A program made the position numbers and the translations under genes. The notes below the pieces were generated by a model, which was not told the origin of the DNA, made no database searches, and saw only the letters and a program-made list of their open reading frames with translations. From the NCBI GenBank assembly GCA_035299445.1, contig DATGWO010000035.1, forward strand, positions 132,022-196,021: 64,000 bases of DNA, in the 5' to 3' direction. Position 1 is the first letter of the stretch; every line of letters starts with the position of its first letter. Below, piece by piece: positions 12,880-20,832 of this stretch. Source of the stretch: Sideroxyarcus sp. GTDB lineage: Bacteria; Pseudomonadota; Gammaproteobacteria; Burkholderiales; Gallionellaceae.

Positions 12880-12913
12880 CCGTCATCTAAACGTAACAAC
12901 TCGGCGCTACTGT
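12880..12913 (+). promoter_or_regulatory. Pho-box-like site plus -10 element
   Basis: CCGTCAT-CTAA-ACGTAAC with 11-bp period, then 10 nt, then TACTGT. Confidence 0.65.
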
Positions 12914-12944
12914 GCGCACCCAACACATCTCACAGGAGTGAGTC

Positions 12945-14819
12945 ATGCCTGCCATTCTACCCGCCGAACACTATCGTTCCACTTCCCGTGCACCGCGCGC
13001 GCAGTTCCTGGCCAATCTCGTTCTTGAAAAGGCGAAGGAAAAGGAGAGAACCATGACACCGCTGCACGAGATCATCGAACAGCGCAAATTGAACGCGCTG
13101 TTCCAGCCCATCATTGACCTCAAGAGCGGCGAGTTCCTCGGCTTCGAAGGCTTAATACGCGGGCCGGCGGACAGTCCGCTGCACTCGCCCGCCAACCTGT
13201 TCGGCGCAGCGGCGCAACAGGGCTTGCAGCTGGAACTGGAGATGGCGGCGCGGCTCACCGTGCTGGAGGCCTTCGCCAGGCAGGCGCTGCCGGGAAACCT
13301 GTTCCTCAACGTCAGCCCGGAGACGCTGACCAACCCCAGCTTCAAGAACGGCCAGACGCTGGCCTTCCTCGACCGGCTCGGCCTCGACCCCGGCCGCGTC
13401 ATCATCGAGATCACCGAGAACCAGCCCACCTTCGATTTCGAGGCCATGCGCGGGGCGCTGCTGCATTATCGCGGCATGGGCTTCCAGATCGCCATCGACG
13501 ACTTGGGCGAAGGTTTTTCCAGCCTGCGCCTGTGGTCCGAACTGCGCCCCGAGTTCATCAAGATCGACATGCATTTCGTGCGGGGCGTGGACAAGGACCC
13601 GATCAAACTCCAGTTCCTCAAATCCATCCAGCACATCGCCGAGAGTTGCGGCACCAAGGTGATCGCCGAAGGCGTGGAGACCGAAGCCGAATTGCGCGTG
13701 GTGAAAGACATCGGCATCGCACTCGGGCAGGGATATTTCATCGCGCGCCCGAACCCGACCCCGCCGCTGCTCGCTTCGCCCGAGACCAGCCGCATCATCA
13801 ACTCGTCCAACATCGCCGTGTTCCCCAAGGCTGAAGCCCACTACCGCACGCAGACGACCGCCAACAAGCTGCTAAGCTACGTCGAGCCGGTGCATCCGGA
13901 GACGCCGAACGACCAGGTGTTCGAGCGCTTCAGCCTCAACCCCGCGCTGCGCATCATCCCGGTGGTCAAAAGCGGCAGCCCGCTTGGACTCATCAACCGC
14001 TACCAGTTCATCGACCGCTTCGCCAAACCCTACCAGCGCGAGCTGATGGGCAAGAAGCCGTGCGACAGCCTGATCCAGGGCGAGCCGCTGCTGGTGGAGA
14101 AGAACATGCCGATCGAGGAGCTCAGCCATTTCCTGGCCGAGGCGGACAGCCGCCATTTCGCCGACGGTTTCATCATCACCGAGAACAGCCGCTACATCGG
14201 CGTCGCCTCGGGGCAGGACCTGTTGCGCGAACTGACGCAGATGCAACTGGAAGCCGCGCGTTATGCCAACCCGCTCACGCTGCTACCGGGCAATGTACCG
14301 ATCAACGAACACATCAACCGCCTGCTGCAAGCGAACACGCAATTCGTCGCCTGCTATTGCGATCTCGACCACTTCAAGCCGTTCAATGACACTTACAGCT
14401 ACCGCAAGGGCGACGAGATGATCCAGCTCACCGGTCGCATCCTCAACTGGGCGTGCGACCCGAAGCTGGATTTCATCGGCCACATCGGCGGCGACGACTT
14501 CATCCTGCTGATGCAGAGCAGCGACTGGAAGGCGCGCTGCGAACAAGCGCTACGCTCGTTCGAACAGGCCGCCTCGCTGATGTTCAAGGAAGAGCACTTG
14601 GTCGAGGGTGGCTACACCAGCGAAGGCCGCGACGGGCAGGTGAAGTTCCACCCGCTCACCAGCCTGTCCATCGGCGCGATCCAGATCGCGCCCGGCCAGT
14701 TCATCTCGCACCACGAAGTCTCGGCTGCCATGAGCGACGCCAAGAAGATGGCGAAGAAAACCCCGGGCAACAGCCTGTTCATCGAACAGCGCAACGCCTT
14801 CACCAGGACAGGAGACTGA
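12945..14819 (+). CDS. EAL-CBS-GGDEF c-di-GMP turnover protein
   Basis: FQPII, EGLIRGP, IAIDDLGEGFSS, KID, AEGVET; CBS-like middle; DLDHFKPFND, GHIGGDDF; second in-frame start with RBS at 13053. Confidence 0.9.
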   Translation: MPAILPAEHYRSTSRAPRAQFLANLVLEKAKEKERTMTPLHEIIEQRKLNALFQPIIDLKSGEFLGFEGLIRGPADSPLHSPANLFGAAAQQGLQLELEMAARLTVLEAFARQALPGNLFLNVSPETLTNPSFKNGQTLAFLDRLGLDPGRVIIEITENQPTFDFEAMRGALLHYRGMGFQIAIDDLGEGFSSLRLWSELRPEFIKIDMHFVRGVDKDPIKLQFLKSIQHIAESCGTKVIAEGVETEAELRVVKDIGIALGQGYFIARPNPTPPLLASPETSRIINSSNIAVFPKAEAHYRTQTTANKLLSYVEPVHPETPNDQVFERFSLNPALRIIPVVKSGSPLGLINRYQFIDRFAKPYQRELMGKKPCDSLIQGEPLLVEKNMPIEELSHFLAEADSRHFADGFIITENSRYIGVASGQDLLRELTQMQLEAARYANPLTLLPGNVPINEHINRLLQANTQFVACYCDLDHFKPFNDTYSYRKGDEMIQLTGRILNWACDPKLDFIGHIGGDDFILLMQSSDWKARCEQALRSFEQAASLMFKEEHLVEGGYTSEGRDGQVKFHPLTSLSIGAIQIAPGQFISHHEVSAAMSDAKKMAKKTPGNSLFIEQRNAFTRTGD

Positions 14820-14823
14820 GGAC

Positions 14824-14946
14824 ATGCACACCACCATCCGGCAAACCGAGCAGGATGCGCGCAGCATCTTCGCTTTGCTGCTCAGCAAGGGCTTCGATGC
14901 CACGCTGACTTTCTTCTGCACGGTCTGCGTTTTCTCGATGGATTGA
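14824..14946 (+). CDS. Putative 40-aa small protein, absent from the supplied ORF track
   Basis: MHTTIRQTEQDARSIFALLLSKGFDATLTFFCTVCVFSMD; GAGG RBS; fills the gap between the EAL stop and olsA start. Confidence 0.5.
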   Translation: MHTTIRQTEQDARSIFALLLSKGFDATLTFFCTVCVFSMD

Positions 14947-14949
14947 ACC

Positions 14950-19385: not shown

Positions 19386-19881
19386 AACCTGGGACGCGGA
19401 GCTGTGCGCGTTCTGCAACCGGCGCAGCCGCAACTTCACGGTACGCAATTTGTTCCGCCTCGCCAGCCGTCTCGGCGACGGGGTGTTCTGGTACACCTTG
19501 ATGGCCGTGTTGCTGCTGGAATACGGCGCAGCCGCCTTGCTCGCCGTGCTGCACATGATCGCCGTCGGCCTGGTCGGCACCGTGCTGTATAAGTTCATCA
19601 AGGGCAAGACCTTGCGGCCGCGCCCGTTCAACGTCTACCCCGCCATCCAGTGCGTGGGCAAGACGCTCGACCAGTTCAGCTTCCCTTCCGGCCACACTCT
19701 GCATGCGGTGGCGTTCAGCATCGTGGCGGTCGCCTACTTCCCATCACTGCTGTGGCTGGTCGCGCCGTTCGCCGTACTGGTCGCGCTGTCGCGGCCCATC
19801 CTCGGCCTGCATTACCCCAGCGATGTGCTGGCGGGGGCGGCGCTGGGGGCGGCGATCGCACTCACTTCGTTGGCAATATAA
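19351..19881 (+). CDS. PAP2-family lipid phosphatase
   Basis: KGKTLRPRP, FPSGH, SRPILGLHYPSD. Confidence 0.92.
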   Translation: MSNLSFPLQQIKTWDAELCAFCNRRSRNFTVRNLFRLASRLGDGVFWYTLMAVLLLEYGAAALLAVLHMIAVGLVGTVLYKFIKGKTLRPRPFNVYPAIQCVGKTLDQFSFPSGHTLHAVAFSIVAVAYFPSLLWLVAPFAVLVALSRPILGLHYPSDVLAGAALGAAIALTSLAI

Positions 19882-19920
19882 ACCCCATCATTCAGGCACA
19901 GGCCGGAATGACGAACAACA

Positions 19921-20769
19921 TCAAGCCTGGCTGAACACATCCTGCGGCAGCGGGATGCGGTGGCGCAATTGCAACGGTGTAACCAGCTCGATGCGCTGGC
20001 GCACGACCGGATCGTCGGCGTGCGGGTTGGCGTCCCACACCGGCTCCTCGCCGGAGAGGATGCGGTCGATGTGCATCAAGCGGGCGCCGGTCTCACTGAG
20101 GTAGTAGTTGAAGCGGCGCTGCACCCGCACATCGAGACGGCGCGCCACCGCATAACAGAGCTGCGACAGTTTGCTGTTGCGCAACAGGTTCTCCGCGCCG
20201 GCCAGCATGCCGACCGCACGTACCGCGATCGCGGGCGAGCAGCCGAAGTGCTGGGCGACATAGTCCCCCAATTCAAGGCGATGGCTGTCCATCAACTCGC
20301 CCGGTTGCGCGAACAGTTGTTCGCGCACATGCATATCCATCGCCCATTCACACGCCGCATGCGTCAGCACCGGCACGTTGCCCCACATCCGCTCGTGCGA
20401 GGGCACGAAATGGTTGTGCGCGATCACGTCCACCAGCAAGTGGCTGACGAAACCGAGCGACAGCGCGTATTCCTCGTCGCTCTGCGCGTCGTCCAGCAGT
20501 TTGCGCGCACGCTGCCACTGGTGGGTGGTGGAGAACGGTTCGCCCCACGGGCGTTCGCTCAGCAGCGCAAGATCGGGCAGACAGGCGCCGGCCAGCACCA
20601 GCTTGGGAAAGGATTTGATCGCGCGGCGATAGCGCGGATCGGTGAGCGGCACCGCCCACAGCAGCATCTGGGCGAAGTAGACATGGGTGTATAGCCCCCA
20701 GGCATGGGCATCCGCGCTGAAGCACAGCAGCGGTATCAGCCAGCGCCAATGTTTGAGCGGATTCTGCAT
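19921..20769 (-). CDS. Secreted zinc-dependent phospholipase C family protein
   Basis: Signal peptide ending AHA, mature WGLYTH; GACLPD; SHLLVDVIAH; HAACEWAMD. Confidence 0.75.
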   Translation of the reverse strand: MQNPLKHWRWLIPLLCFSADAHAWGLYTHVYFAQMLLWAVPLTDPRYRRAIKSFPKLVLAGACLPDLALLSERPWGEPFSTTHQWQRARKLLDDAQSDEEYALSLGFVSHLLVDVIAHNHFVPSHERMWGNVPVLTHAACEWAMDMHVREQLFAQPGELMDSHRLELGDYVAQHFGCSPAIAVRAVGMLAGAENLLRNSKLSQLCYAVARRLDVRVQRRFNYYLSETGARLMHIDRILSGEEPVWDANPHADDPVVRQRIELVTPLQLRHRIPLPQDVFSQA

Positions 20770-20776
20770 GCTGCGC

Positions 20777-20832
20777 AGTGTCGCCGCCGCATGCGAAACT
20801 TTGATGACGCGCGGATGATTTTATTGTGACGA
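20777..20832 (-). promoter_or_regulatory. Pho-box-like repeats plus -10 upstream of the Zn-PLC gene
   Basis: Minus strand GTCAC-N6-ATCAT-N6-GTCAT-N6-TTCGC, 10 nt, GACACT, 7 nt, ATG. Confidence 0.65.

What the first reader, a model, noticed from the sequence alone, without database searches (positions are those of the whole stretch)
12880..20832. Phosphate-starvation membrane-remodelling cluster marked by four Pho-box-like promoters
GTCAT/GTAAC-type half-sites at exact 11-bp spacing precede the EAL-olsA-olsB operon (12880), dgkA (16609, weaker), GT4-PAP2 (18099-18147) and Zn-PLC (20793-20830, minus). At three sites a -10-like hexamer follows exactly 10 nt later, the PhoB promoter geometry. Established: OlsB/OlsA make P-free ornithine lipids and Agt-type GT4 enzymes make glycolipids from DAG during P limitation. 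Inference: phospholipid removal, P-free lipid synthesis, DAG recycling and backbone salvage are gathered in 13 kb under PhoB. phoB is not in the window.
Basis: partly seen in the sequence, partly recalled or inferred. Interest (0 to 1): 0.68.

Follow-up and report, generated by a model that had tools for sequence, protein, structure and literature searches.

The report
Phosphate-starvation promoters on a lipid-remodelling cluster
An iron-oxidising bacterium (family Gallionellaceae) keeps its genes for phosphorus-free membrane lipids and phospholipid breakdown behind four conserved binding sites for the phosphate-starvation regulator PhoB; this is a well-known strategy in other bacteria, seen here with a somewhat different enzyme set.

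Summary

- **Motif match.** The half-sites lie in 11-bp register. They match the Pho boxes I extracted independently from the phoB and pstS promoters of this genome and about 30 relatives.
- **Geometry.** Each site has an xAnnnT hexamer exactly 10 nt downstream.
- **dgkA site (16611-16626): not supported.** It scores low, is not conserved, has no -10-like hexamer, and lies just behind a conserved terminator.
- **Missed site.** It is a four-half-site array at 15700-39 with a -10 at 15750-55, and it gives olsB its own promoter in 65 of 65 relatives.
- **Genome-wide rank.** Among 2138 upstream regions, PLC, olsB and GT4 rank 2nd, 3rd and 7th for four-half-site arrays; phoB itself ranks 1st. EAL ranks 9th for single boxes.
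- **Neighbours in relatives.** The same locus adjoins pstS, phoU, ppk and a PF04185 phosphoesterase gene, all with strong boxes.
- **No Shine-Dalgarno.** GT4 and PLC lack one, and their ATG sits 7 nt after the -10, so their mRNAs may be leaderless.

PhoB control is well supported in silico. The lipid products are inferred from family-level homology. Pho-regulated olsB, glycolipid and phospholipase C remodelling is established elsewhere, so this is a new member of a known kind, of moderate to low interest.

The parts
12880..12897 (+). Pho box of the EAL-olsA promoter: CCGTCAT ctaa ACGTAAC
   Evidence: Dimer score 12.3, rank 9 of 2138 upstream regions. Conserved in 26 of 29 upstream regions (window included); in distant relatives it becomes TGTCATatcaCTGTCAT. 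Retained in front of olsA in three relatives that have lost the EAL gene.
12908..12913 (+). -10 hexamer TACTGT, exactly 10 nt after the box
   Evidence: TAnnnT or xAnnnT at this position in 26/26 box-bearing upstream regions (window included).
12945..14819 (+). EAL-CBS-GGDEF protein. EAL catalytic motifs are present (EGL, N, EITE, DDLGEG, KID, EGVE, QGY). The GGDEF motif is degenerate (GGDDF). Probable c-di-GMP phosphodiesterase.
   Evidence: Pfam EAL 167 bits, GGDEF 45 bits (partial), CBS 25 bits; motifs read from the sequence.
14950..15816 (+). PlsC-family acyltransferase, OlsA-like. The ORF runs on through the olsB promoter, so its real C-terminus is uncertain.
   Evidence: Pfam Acyltransferase 88 bits. 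The best NCBIfam hits are the two OlsA equivalogs, at 124 and 122.5 bits, below their cut-offs of 300.
15700..15739 (+). Four-half-site Pho array of the olsB promoter: TCTTCAC / CTTTCAT / CCTTAAC / GCGCAAC.
   Evidence: Tetramer score 9.5, rank 3 of 2138. Present in all 65 relatives examined: median 14.4, minimum 3.2, against a control 95th percentile of 2.3.
15750..15755 (+). -10 hexamer TATCCT, 10 nt after the fourth half-site; followed by the Shine-Dalgarno AGGAG and GTG at 15785
   Evidence: xAnnnT (mostly TAATCT) at exactly this spacing in 97% of 65 relatives.
15785..16543 (+). OlsB-like N-acyltransferase
   Evidence: Pfam Acetyltransf_5 136.8 bits. NCBIfam OlsB equivalogs score 197 and 187 bits, below cut-offs of 320 and 350.
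16571..16602 (+). Intrinsic terminator after olsB: GCGCGCAC..GTGCGCG followed by T8
   Evidence: Terminator scan; conserved in nearly all relatives.
16611..16626 (+). Judged not functional.
   Evidence: Dimer score 7.1, rank 76 of 2138. No -10 at a 10-nt gap. The spacer is variable, and in many relatives too short for a promoter.
16652..17020 (+). dgkA (diacylglycerol kinase), 122 aa from the conserved ATG
   Evidence: Pfam DAGK_prokar 123.8 bits; start fixed by alignment with relatives.
17021..18107 (.). Non-conserved, lower-GC insert between dgkA and the GT4 promoter. It carries an orphan secreted-protein ORF (17334-17963, minus). Not part of the system.
   Evidence: Absent from most relatives, where GT4 follows dgkA directly. 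GC is 0.55 here against about 0.62 elsewhere. No Pfam or NCBIfam hit.
18108..18147 (+). Four-half-site Pho array of the GT4-PAP2 promoter: GCGTAAC / TCTTCAA / TCTTAAT / TGTTCAC
   Evidence: Tetramer score 7.4, rank 7 of 2138. Relatives' median is 11.1 against a control median of -14.2; 90% exceed the control 95th percentile. Conservation is periodic along the array.
18158..18163 (+). -10-like hexamer CACGAT, 10 nt after the array and 7 nt before ATG 18171
   Evidence: CAnnAT, with A2, A5 and T6 conserved, in 93% of 27 box-bearing regions (window included). The 7-nt gap to the ATG holds in 24 of 27. No Shine-Dalgarno sequence is visible upstream in the window or the aligned relatives.
18171..19385 (+). 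GT4-family glycosyltransferase; candidate lipid (DAG or PG) glycosyltransferase
   Evidence: Pfam Glyco_trans_1_4, Glycos_transf_1 and Glyco_transf_4. The nearest NCBIfam models are GlcNAc-PG synthase (142 bits, cut-off 480) and MGlcDAG synthase Mgs (115.5 bits, cut-off 400). The nearest PDB entries are BshA and PimA.
19351..19881 (+). PAP2 lipid phosphatase; overlaps the GT4 3' end by 35 nt, so probably co-transcribed
   Evidence: Pfam PAP2 76.9 bits. Weak NCBIfam hits to SepP, PgpB and LpxE, all below cut-off.
19921..20769 (-). Sec-exported Zn_dep_PLPC-family protein. The signal peptide ends ...ADAHA, and the mature N-terminus is Trp24.
   Evidence: Pfam PF00882 76.6 bits, cut-off 26.8. W24, H29, D66, H83, H110, D114, H118, H137 and E141 are invariant in 17 orthologues. 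No PDB sequence match. The AF2 model has pLDDT 54 and is unusable.
20777..20782 (-). -10-like hexamer GACACT, 10 nt after the array and 7 nt before ATG 20769
   Evidence: GAcACT or GAAACT in 88% of 17 box-bearing regions (window included). The 7-nt gap holds in 13 of 17. No Shine-Dalgarno sequence.
20793..20832 (-). Four-half-site Pho array of the PLC promoter: TCGTCAC / AAATCAT / GCGTCAT / GTTTCGC
   Evidence: Tetramer score 10.2, rank 2 of 2138, behind only phoB. Relatives' median is 14.2; 94% exceed the control 95th percentile. In relatives h1 and h3 become CTGTCAT and ATGTCAT.

Best explanation
The region is a Gallionellaceae Pho-regulon island for membrane-lipid remodelling. It is organised as four PhoB-dependent transcription units.

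**Mechanism (inferred from the E. coli PhoB paradigm).** Under phosphate limitation, phosphorylated PhoB binds head-to-tail to 7-bp direct repeats spaced 11 bp apart. These repeats take the place of a -35 element and lie exactly 10 nt upstream of a -10 hexamer. PhoB then recruits sigma-70 RNA polymerase. phoBR is encoded elsewhere, at C27:114181.

**The four units.**
1. P(EAL), one box: drives an EAL-CBS-(degenerate GGDEF) c-di-GMP phosphodiesterase plus the OlsA-like O-acyltransferase.
2. P(olsB), two boxes: drives the OlsB-like N-acyltransferase and ends at an intrinsic terminator.
3. P(GT4), two boxes: drives a GT4 lipid-type glycosyltransferase plus a PAP2 lipid phosphatase.
4. P(PLC), two boxes, opposite strand: drives a Sec-exported Zn-phospholipase-C-family enzyme.

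**Predicted outcome (inferred from family homology).**
- Phospholipid head groups are cleaved by the PLC and PAP2 enzymes, freeing phosphate and diacylglycerol.
- Phosphorus-free ornithine lipid and a glycolipid take their place.
- c-di-GMP falls.

**dgkA.** It sits in the cluster but has no credible Pho box of its own.

**Shown in silico:** the motifs, their geometry, their conservation and their genome-wide ranking.
**Inferred:** PhoB binding, induction at low phosphate, and every enzymatic product.
For: **An independent reference motif.**
- This genome's phoB promoter reads CTGTCATgttgCTGTCATaattCTTTCAT. Its pstS promoter reads GTGTAATaattGTGTAAC.
- Thirty phoB and 28 pstS promoters of the family share box / 10 nt / TAnnAT.
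- C-for-T variants such as CCGTCAT, GCGTAAC and CCGTAAT occur in those bona fide promoters too.

**Genome-wide ranking with that motif (2138 upstream regions).**
- Tetramer score: phoB 1st, PLC 2nd, olsB 3rd, GT4 7th.
- Dimer score: pstS 1st, phoB 2nd, EAL 9th, phoU 15th.
- Three of 7 cluster genes in the top 10 gives P = 2.6e-6.

**Phylogenetic footprinting across about 80 Gallionellaceae loci.**
- EAL orthologues: median dimer score 16.2, against 0.1 for controls.
- Tetramer medians: GT4 11.1, PLC 14.2, olsB 14.4, against -14.2 for controls.
- Mann-Whitney P values range from 1e-10 to 1e-18.
- Conservation is periodic along the arrays.
- The xAnnnT hexamer sits exactly 10 nt downstream in 88-100% of box-bearing regions.

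**Further support.**
- Where the EAL gene was lost (L016, L019, L032), the box and -10 are kept directly in front of olsA.
- In relatives, the genes next to the cluster with the strongest boxes (scores 19-27) are pstS, phoU, ppk1, a porin and a PF04185 phosphoesterase.
- No sigma-70 -35/-10 pair is found at any of the four sites, as expected for activator-dependent promoters.

**Precedents in the literature.**
- Pho boxes upstream of olsB in Burkholderia sensu lato (PMC7814305).
- Pho-box PlcP-Agt operons (PMC4796936, PMC8528852).
- The low-phosphate-induced c-di-GMP phosphodiesterase RapA (PMC3032545).
Against: - There are no expression, binding or lipid data.
- In this particular genome the sites are weak next to phoB and pstS. 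Dimer scores are 12.3, 5.5 and 8.9, against 24-25 for those two promoters. GT4 and PLC stand out only as four-site arrays and through conservation.
- The training boxes were picked with a regular expression, and the relatives are phylogenetically related, so the P values are optimistic.
- In E. coli many PhoB-bound sites are transcriptionally inert (PMC10294691).
- The -10-like hexamers of GT4 (CACGAT) and PLC (GACACT) lack the usual first T.
- OlsA, OlsB and GT4 score below the NCBIfam equivalog cut-offs, and the PLC and PAP2 substrates are unknown.
- A periplasmic PLC could instead serve to scavenge exogenous phospholipid.
Confidence: 0.8

Rival explanations
1. Another OmpR-family regulator binds the 11-bp repeats, not PhoB. 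The obvious candidate is the only other full-length OmpR-type regulator found in the genome, a TctD/PmrA-like protein at window 45428-46105. The cluster would then respond to a different signal, for example Fe(III) or low pH, as PmrA does.
For: - Some half-sites (TCTTAAT, CCTTAAC) resemble the PmrA-type YTTAAK repeat, a comparison I make from memory.
- Only two full-length OmpR-type regulators matched in the genome scan. The second is TctD/PmrA-like: 241 and 230 bits, below the equivalog cut-offs.
- Envelope lipid modification is a typical PmrA output.
Against: - The promoter-distal half-sites are canonical PhoB sites (C/TGTCAT, CGTAAC). They are identical in type to those of the phoB and pstS promoters of the same genome and family.
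- CTTTCAT is itself the third repeat of the phoB promoter.
- The TctD-like gene's own upstream region carries a different repeat, CTTACA-N5-CTTACA.
- YTTAAK-N5-YTTAAK with up to one mismatch finds nothing in the cluster.
- In relatives the cluster sits among pstS, phoU and ppk.
Confidence: 0.05
2. PhoB does bind the sites, but the enzymes do not remodel the cell's own membrane. The exported Zn-PLC-family enzyme and the PAP2 phosphatase scavenge phosphate from external or outer-membrane phospholipids, lipid A or undecaprenyl pyrophosphate. The GT4 enzyme glycosylates something other than DAG, such as PG or a polyprenol.
For: - The PLC has a Sec signal peptide.
- PAP2's nearest NCBIfam models are SepP (undecaprenyl pyrophosphate phosphatase), PgpB and LpxE.
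- GT4's best NCBIfam hit is a GlcNAc-phosphatidylglycerol synthase, not a DAG glycosyltransferase, and it is below cut-off.
Against: - GT4, PAP2 and PLC are conserved together next to olsA, olsB and dgkA across the family.
- The second-best GT4 hit is the MGlcDAG synthase Mgs.
- PLC plus a glycosyltransferase under Pho control is the established remodelling logic (PMC4796936, PMC8528852).
Confidence: 0.2
3. The repeats are conserved for reasons unrelated to transcription activation, or are chance matches. They could be inert PhoB sites, or sequence constrained by overlapping coding regions. The olsB array lies in the 3' end of the olsA ORF. In relatives the GT4 first half-site overlaps the dgkA stop codon.
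For: - Many E. coli PhoB sites are inert (PMC10294691).
- Scores in this genome are modest.
- Two arrays touch coding sequence.
Against: - Conservation is periodic: half-sites are conserved and spacers vary.
- The xAnnnT hexamer keeps an exact 10-nt offset in 88-100% of box-bearing regions.
- In relatives whose olsA ends earlier, the olsB array lies in non-coding DNA and is just as conserved.
- The clustering of top-ranked arrays gives P = 2.6e-6.
Confidence: 0.05

Closest known systems
E. coli-type PhoB/Pho-box promoters (pstS, phoA, phoB): CTGTCAT-N4-CTGTCAT replacing the -35 element, 10 bp upstream of the -10
   Same: - 7-bp direct repeats with an 11-bp period.
- One or two boxes per promoter.
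- No -35 element.
- An exact 10-nt gap to the -10.
- The same motif on the organism's own phoB and pstS promoters.
   Different: - The half-sites here are degenerate (CGTCAT, CGTAAC, TTCAA, TTAAT), with strong and weak sites alternating in the four-site arrays.
- Two promoters (GT4, PLC) appear to start transcription at or next to the ATG. This has not, to my knowledge, been described for Pho promoters.
Pho-regulated ornithine-lipid synthesis, olsB/olsA: S. meliloti, P. aeruginosa olsBA, and Burkholderia sensu lato with predicted Pho boxes before olsB (PMC7814305)
   Same: - An OlsB-like GNAT and an OlsA-like PlsC acyltransferase lie side by side.
- A Pho box lies directly upstream of olsB.
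- The organism is a betaproteobacterium.
   Different: - The gene order is olsA then olsB, each behind its own Pho promoter.
- olsA is co-transcribed with an EAL phosphodiesterase.
- Both proteins fall below the NCBIfam equivalog cut-offs.
PlcP-Agt lipid-renovation operons of marine bacteria, S. meliloti and P. aeruginosa (PMC4796936, PMC8528852)
   Same: - A Pho box controls a phospholipid-cleaving enzyme together with a GT4 glycosyltransferase.
- The predicted logic is the same: phospholipid to DAG to glycolipid.
   Different: - The phospholipase is not the PlcP type. It is a Sec-exported PF00882 (Zn_dep_PLPC) protein on the opposite strand with its own promoter.
- The glycosyltransferase is paired with a PAP2 phosphatase.
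- Orthology of the GT4 to Agt was not tested.
RapA of Pseudomonas fluorescens Pf0-1, a low-phosphate-induced c-di-GMP phosphodiesterase (PMC3032545)
   Same: An EAL-domain phosphodiesterase placed under the phosphate-starvation response.
   Different: - The domain architecture here is EAL-CBS-degenerate GGDEF.
- The gene is co-transcribed with a lipid acyltransferase.
- The downstream c-di-GMP target is unknown.

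Membership tests
PhoB (Pho-box) dependent promoter | Two or more 7-bp TGTCAT-like direct repeats with 11-bp periodicity | tested here: met
   Met at EAL, olsB, GT4 and PLC; not met at dgkA. The PWM was built from the family's phoB and pstS promoters. Ranks are 9th (dimer score) and 2nd, 3rd and 7th (tetramer score) of 2138.
PhoB (Pho-box) dependent promoter | The box replaces the -35 element and lies 10 nt upstream of a -10 hexamer | tested here: met
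   xAnnnT exactly 10 nt after the box in 88-100% of box-bearing upstream regions at all four promoters. No -35/-10 pair was detected.
PhoB (Pho-box) dependent promoter | The same motif on the core Pho genes (phoB, pstS) of the same organism | tested here: met
   phoU also carries a box, at rank 15.
PhoB (Pho-box) dependent promoter | PhoB~P binding and induction at low phosphate | not testable with these tools
No literature on Gallionellaceae was found.
OlsB/OlsA ornithine-lipid pathway | An OlsB-type N-acyltransferase and an OlsA-type O-acyltransferase | tested here: inconclusive
   - Pfam Acetyltransf_5 scores 136.8 bits and Acyltransferase 88.4 bits, both above their cut-offs.
- The best NCBIfam hits are the OlsB equivalog (197 bits, cut-off 320) and the OlsA equivalog (124 bits, cut-off 300), both below cut-off.
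OlsB/OlsA ornithine-lipid pathway | Ornithine lipid is produced | not testable with these tools
   Needs lipidomics.
PlcP-Agt lipid renovation system | A PlcP-type phospholipase C supplies the DAG | tested here: not met
   The only phospholipase-C-like gene in the cluster hits Pfam PF00882 (Zn_dep_PLPC) alone, and it has a signal peptide. I did not search for a PlcP elsewhere in the genome.
PlcP-Agt lipid renovation system | An Agt-type GT4 glycosyltransferase that acts on DAG | tested here: inconclusive
   GT4 family membership is met. The nearest characterised models are lipid glycosyltransferases (GlcNAc-PG synthase, Mgs), but below cut-off. Orthology to Agt was not tested, because no Agt sequence was available.
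Zn-dependent phospholipase C (PF00882) | Profile match above the gathering score; a mature N-terminal Trp and conserved His/Asp/Glu metal ligands | tested here: met
   - 76.6 bits against a cut-off of 26.8.
- The signal peptide leaves W24 as the first mature residue.
- W24, H29, D66, H83, H110, D114, H118, H137 and E141 are invariant in 17 orthologues.
- Assigning these residues to the three-zinc site rests on my memory of the B. cereus PLC and P1 nuclease structures.
Zn-dependent phospholipase C (PF00882) | The all-alpha PLC / P1-nuclease fold | tested here: inconclusive
   The AF2 model is all-helical but has mean pLDDT 54.5, so I ran no fold search. There is no PDB sequence hit.

The most novel reading that the evidence does not exclude
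In Gallionellaceae the DAG-supplying step of phosphate-sparing lipid renovation is not done by PlcP. A Sec-exported Zn-PLC-family enzyme and a GT4-coupled PAP2 phosphatase do it instead. Both GT4-PAP2 and PLC are expressed as leaderless mRNAs from PhoB-dependent promoters: the -10 hexamer lies exactly 7 nt before the ATG, and there is no Shine-Dalgarno sequence. This architecture is conserved across the family.
Probability: 0.3. Interest if true: 0.5.

Novelty: new member of a known kind. Interest (0 to 1): 0.33.

Why it matters
- **Ecology.** Iron-oxidising Gallionellaceae live surrounded by the Fe(III) oxyhydroxides they make. From general knowledge, these minerals bind phosphate strongly, so phosphate scarcity is probably routine for them.
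- **What the cluster predicts.** A conserved, PhoB-wired cluster for phosphorus-free lipids predicts that their membranes shift from phospholipids to ornithine lipids and glycolipids in situ. That is relevant to lipid biomarkers of iron mats and to their phosphorus budget.
- **A usable regulon model.** The analysis gives a ready PhoB motif for the family: box / 10 nt / TAnnAT.
- **Leads for experiments.** Two are new here: possible leaderless PhoB promoters, and a Zn-PLC/PAP2 route to diacylglycerol. Two have precedents: low phosphate linked to c-di-GMP, and the general principle, which is already well established in other Proteobacteria.

Tried and rejected
- **18-mer PWM including the spacers**. 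It over-fitted the phoB and pstS spacers and ranked only the EAL site (about 47th of all genome positions). I replaced it with a pooled half-site model scored as dimers and as four-site arrays.
- **A conserved inverted repeat around the GT4 -10 and ATG** (CATGCGC...GCGCATG).
  - RNAalifold predicts no consensus hairpin.
  - My hand-specified 6-pair helix is 79% paired with only weak covariation.
  - For PLC, only a 4-pair helix without covariation appears.
  - I left it as an unexplained minor feature.
- **Structure of the PLC.** AF2 on 17 close orthologues gave pLDDT 54.5. I skipped the fold search because its matches would be meaningless. A PDB sequence search found nothing.
- **IS or target-site-duplication features for the 17021-18107 insert.** None found.
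- **A PmrA-type repeat search** (YTTAAK-N5-YTTAAK, up to one mismatch). It finds nothing in the cluster.
- **Alternative -10 hexamers for GT4.** I considered TCAAAT and TTTAAT, which lie inside the array, and rejected both. TCAAAT's sixth base is not conserved, and TTTAAT lacks the A at position 2. CAnnAT, 10 nt after the fourth half-site, has A2, A5 and T6 conserved in 93% of the box-bearing regions.

Full report
**Context.** The window is C35:132022-196021 of a 2.69-Mb, 40-contig genome. OlsB-centred searches place it in the Gallionellaceae, near Sideroxydans, Sideroxyarcus and Ferrigenium. The best relatives are 83-92% identical in OlsB.

**Genes.**
- EAL-CBS-GGDEF, 12945-14819.
- A PlsC acyltransferase whose best NCBIfam hits are the OlsA equivalogs, 14950-15816.
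- An Acetyltransf_5 protein whose best hits are the OlsB equivalogs, 15785-16543.
- DgkA.
- A GT4 glycosyltransferase.
- A PAP2 phosphatase overlapping the GT4 3' end.
- A Zn_dep_PLPC protein on the minus strand, 19921-20769.
- OlsA, OlsB and GT4 all fall below the NCBIfam equivalog cut-offs, so their functions are family-level inferences.
- Alignment with relatives moves three start codons: dgkA to ATG 16652, GT4 to ATG 18171, and the upstream alpha/beta hydrolase probably to ATG 12872.

**An independent reference motif.**
- phoB-phoR lies at C27:114181 and pstSCAB at C22:89272.
- Their promoters read CTGTCATgttgCTGTCATaattCTTTCAT and GTGTAATaattGTGTAAC.
- I fetched the same promoters from about 30 genomes of the family. 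Both are strikingly conserved.
- phoB: CTGTCAT-N4-CTGTCAY, then 10 nt, then TAYCAT. pstS: xTGTAAT-N4-xTGTAAY, then 10 nt, then TAnGAT.
- C-for-T variants (CCGTCAT, GCGTAAC, CCGTAAT) occur among these bona fide sites. The CGTCAT and CGTAAC half-sites in the cluster are therefore within the PhoB repertoire.
- I pooled 58 boxes into a half-site weight matrix. I scored dimers (one box) and four half-sites in 11-bp register, called tetramers here.

**Checking the four reported sites.**
- Site 1 (12880-12897, CCGTCATctaaACGTAAC) scores 12.3. The -10 hexamer TACTGT follows after exactly 10 nt.
- Site 3 is a four-half-site array at 18108-18147. The extra GTGAC at 18099 lies in a non-conserved insert.
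- Site 4 is a four-half-site array at 20832-20793 on the minus strand.
- Site 2 (dgkA) scores 7.1, rank 76 of 2138. Its third repeat is out of register and it has no -10-like hexamer.
- Site 2 also sits in a spacer that varies freely among relatives. In many of them that spacer is only about 25 nt long, behind a conserved intrinsic terminator at 16571-16602. I judge it non-functional.

- The genome-wide scan flagged an array inside the 3' end of the olsA ORF: TCTTCAC / CTTTCAT / CCTTAAC / GCGCAAC at 15700-15739.
- It is followed by 10 nt, TATCCT (15750-55), the Shine-Dalgarno AGGAG and the olsB start at 15785.
- It is present in all 65 relatives examined, including distant Gallionella and Nitrotoga genomes.
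- Its median tetramer score is 14.4. An xAnnnT hexamer lies at the exact 10-nt offset in 97% of them.
- olsB therefore has its own Pho promoter, the best conserved of the cluster.

**Statistics.**
- Among the upstream regions of 2138 predicted genes in this genome, tetramer ranks are phoB 1st, PLC 2nd, olsB 3rd and GT4 7th.
- Dimer ranks are pstS 1st, phoB 2nd, EAL 9th and phoU 15th.
- Three of 7 cluster genes in the top 10 gives a hypergeometric P of 2.6e-6.
- Across relatives, EAL orthologues have a median dimer score of 16.2, against 0.1 for 665 control genes from the same loci.
- GT4 and PLC have tetramer medians of 11.1 and 14.2, against -14.2 for controls. Between 90% and 94% exceed the control 95th percentile.
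- The highest-scoring 'controls' turned out to be pstS, phoU, ppk1, a porin, a PF04185 phosphoesterase and a 625-aa pyruvate-kinase-barrel protein.
- That result validates the matrix. It also shows that in relatives the lipid cluster sits inside a wider Pho island.
- Column-wise conservation of the GT4 and PLC promoters is periodic: half-sites are conserved and spacers vary.

**Promoter geometry.**
- All four promoters share one layout: the promoter-proximal box, 10 nt, then xAnnnT.
- The hexamers are TAnnnT at EAL (26/26), TAnnCT at olsB (97%), CAnnAT at GT4 (93%) and GAnACT at PLC (88%) of box-bearing regions.
- No sigma-70 -35/-10 pair is detected at any of them. That fits activator-dependent promoters.
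- EAL and olsB have normal leaders with GGAG Shine-Dalgarno sequences.
- GT4 and PLC have no Shine-Dalgarno sequence. Their conserved ATG lies 7 nt after the hexamer in 24 of 27 and 13 of 17 regions.
- This suggests, but does not prove, leaderless transcripts.

**Operon structure.**
- In L016, L019 and L032 the EAL gene has been deleted, yet the box and -10 remain directly upstream of olsA. The first promoter therefore serves olsA as well.
- A terminator follows olsB.
- In most relatives GT4 follows dgkA directly, and the first half-site of the GT4 box overlaps the dgkA stop codon.
- In this window a 1.1-kb lower-GC insert (17021-18107) has separated them. It carries an orphan secreted-protein ORF.

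**Proteins.**
- The EAL domain keeps its catalytic motifs. The GGDEF motif is degenerate (GGDDF).
- The PLC has a Sec signal peptide that leaves Trp24 as the mature N-terminus.
- Nine invariant residues could be metal ligands: W24, H29, D66, H83, H110, D114, H118, H137 and E141. The ligand assignment rests on my memory of B. cereus PLC and P1 nuclease.
- No PDB homologue is detectable by sequence. The AF2 model was too poor to use.
- GT4's closest characterised models are lipid glycosyltransferases, namely GlcNAc-PG synthase and the MGlcDAG synthase Mgs, both below cut-off. Its closest PDB entries are BshA and PimA.

**Rival regulator.**
- The only other full-length OmpR-type regulator that matched in the genome scan is in the window, at 45428-46105, and is TctD/PmrA-like.
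- Its own upstream region carries a different repeat, CTTACA-N5-CTTACA.
- A PmrA-type pattern finds nothing in the cluster.
- Together with the identity of the cluster motif to the phoB and pstS promoters, this makes PhoB by far the best candidate.

**Comparison with what is known.**
- Pho boxes upstream of olsB are already predicted in betaproteobacteria (Burkholderia sensu lato, PMC7814305).
- Pho-box PlcP-Agt operons are established in marine bacteria and P. aeruginosa (PMC4796936, PMC8528852).
- A low-phosphate-induced c-di-GMP phosphodiesterase is known in P. fluorescens (RapA, PMC3032545).
- I found nothing on Gallionellaceae.
- The differences here are the enzyme set, the separate promoters for olsA and olsB, and the possible leaderless promoters. 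The enzyme set is an exported PF00882 PLC plus PAP2, rather than PlcP.
- A caveat from E. coli: many PhoB sites are transcriptionally inert (PMC10294691).

**Verdict.** This is a new member of a known kind of system. Confidence in PhoB-dependent control of the four promoters is about 0.8.

Noticed in passing
window 18148-18173 and 20767-20792 (minus): GT4 and PLC share a conserved GC-rich stretch around the -10 and the start codon (xAxxxT GCGCnGC ATG). Part of it is an inverted repeat, CATGCGC...GCGCATG, whose 3' arm contains the ATG. Covariation is weak and RNAalifold predicts no consensus hairpin. It could be an operator for a second regulator or a start-codon-sequestering hairpin in read-through RNA.
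   Followed up: partly
window 17021-18107: A 1.1-kb insert of lower GC (about 0.55) lies between dgkA and the GT4 promoter and is absent from most relatives. It encodes a 209-aa secreted protein with no family hit (17334-17963, minus). It replaced the last codons of dgkA, and the original GGCGTAA stop region survives at 18107-18113. No IS-like ends were found. Other relatives carry different inserts at the same spot, so this may be an insertion hot spot.
   Followed up: partly
L023:5990-7870, L024:2752-4632, L055:12935-14809, L060:4317-6248, L061:13614-15488: Relatives carry a roughly 625-aa protein with a pyruvate-kinase barrel domain behind a very strong Pho box (scores 21-27). In L023 and L024 it lies between dgkA and GT4. 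A Pho-regulated pyruvate-kinase-like enzyme is unexpected and was not examined further.
   Followed up: no
window 45380-45430: The TctD/PmrA-like response regulator gene (45428-46105) is preceded by CTTACA-N5-CTTACA direct repeats (CCTTACATATAACTTACAG), possibly its autoregulatory site.
   Followed up: no
window 20845-20890: The annotated ATG of the DUF218/ElyC-like gene (20858) lies inside a conserved extended -10-like element (TGCCATAAT here, TGCGATAAT in relatives). The real start is probably ATG 20888. The first half-site of the PLC Pho array (20826-32) would fall near this promoter's -35 position, so PhoB binding might also affect the divergent gene.
   Followed up: partly
genome C27:40221-40985 (minus), outside the window: A secreted beta-carbonic anhydrase (Pro_CA) has the third-best Pho box in the genome: ATGTCATcctgATGTAAC, score 18.9, with the box starting 54 nt upstream of the start codon.
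   Followed up: no
window 11718-12872 (minus): An alpha/beta hydrolase (Hydrolase_4, lysophospholipase-like family) is transcribed divergently from EAL. Its probable ATG (12872) is only 8 nt from the Pho box, so its promoter must overlap the EAL promoter region. It adjoins the cluster only in the closer relatives.
   Followed up: no
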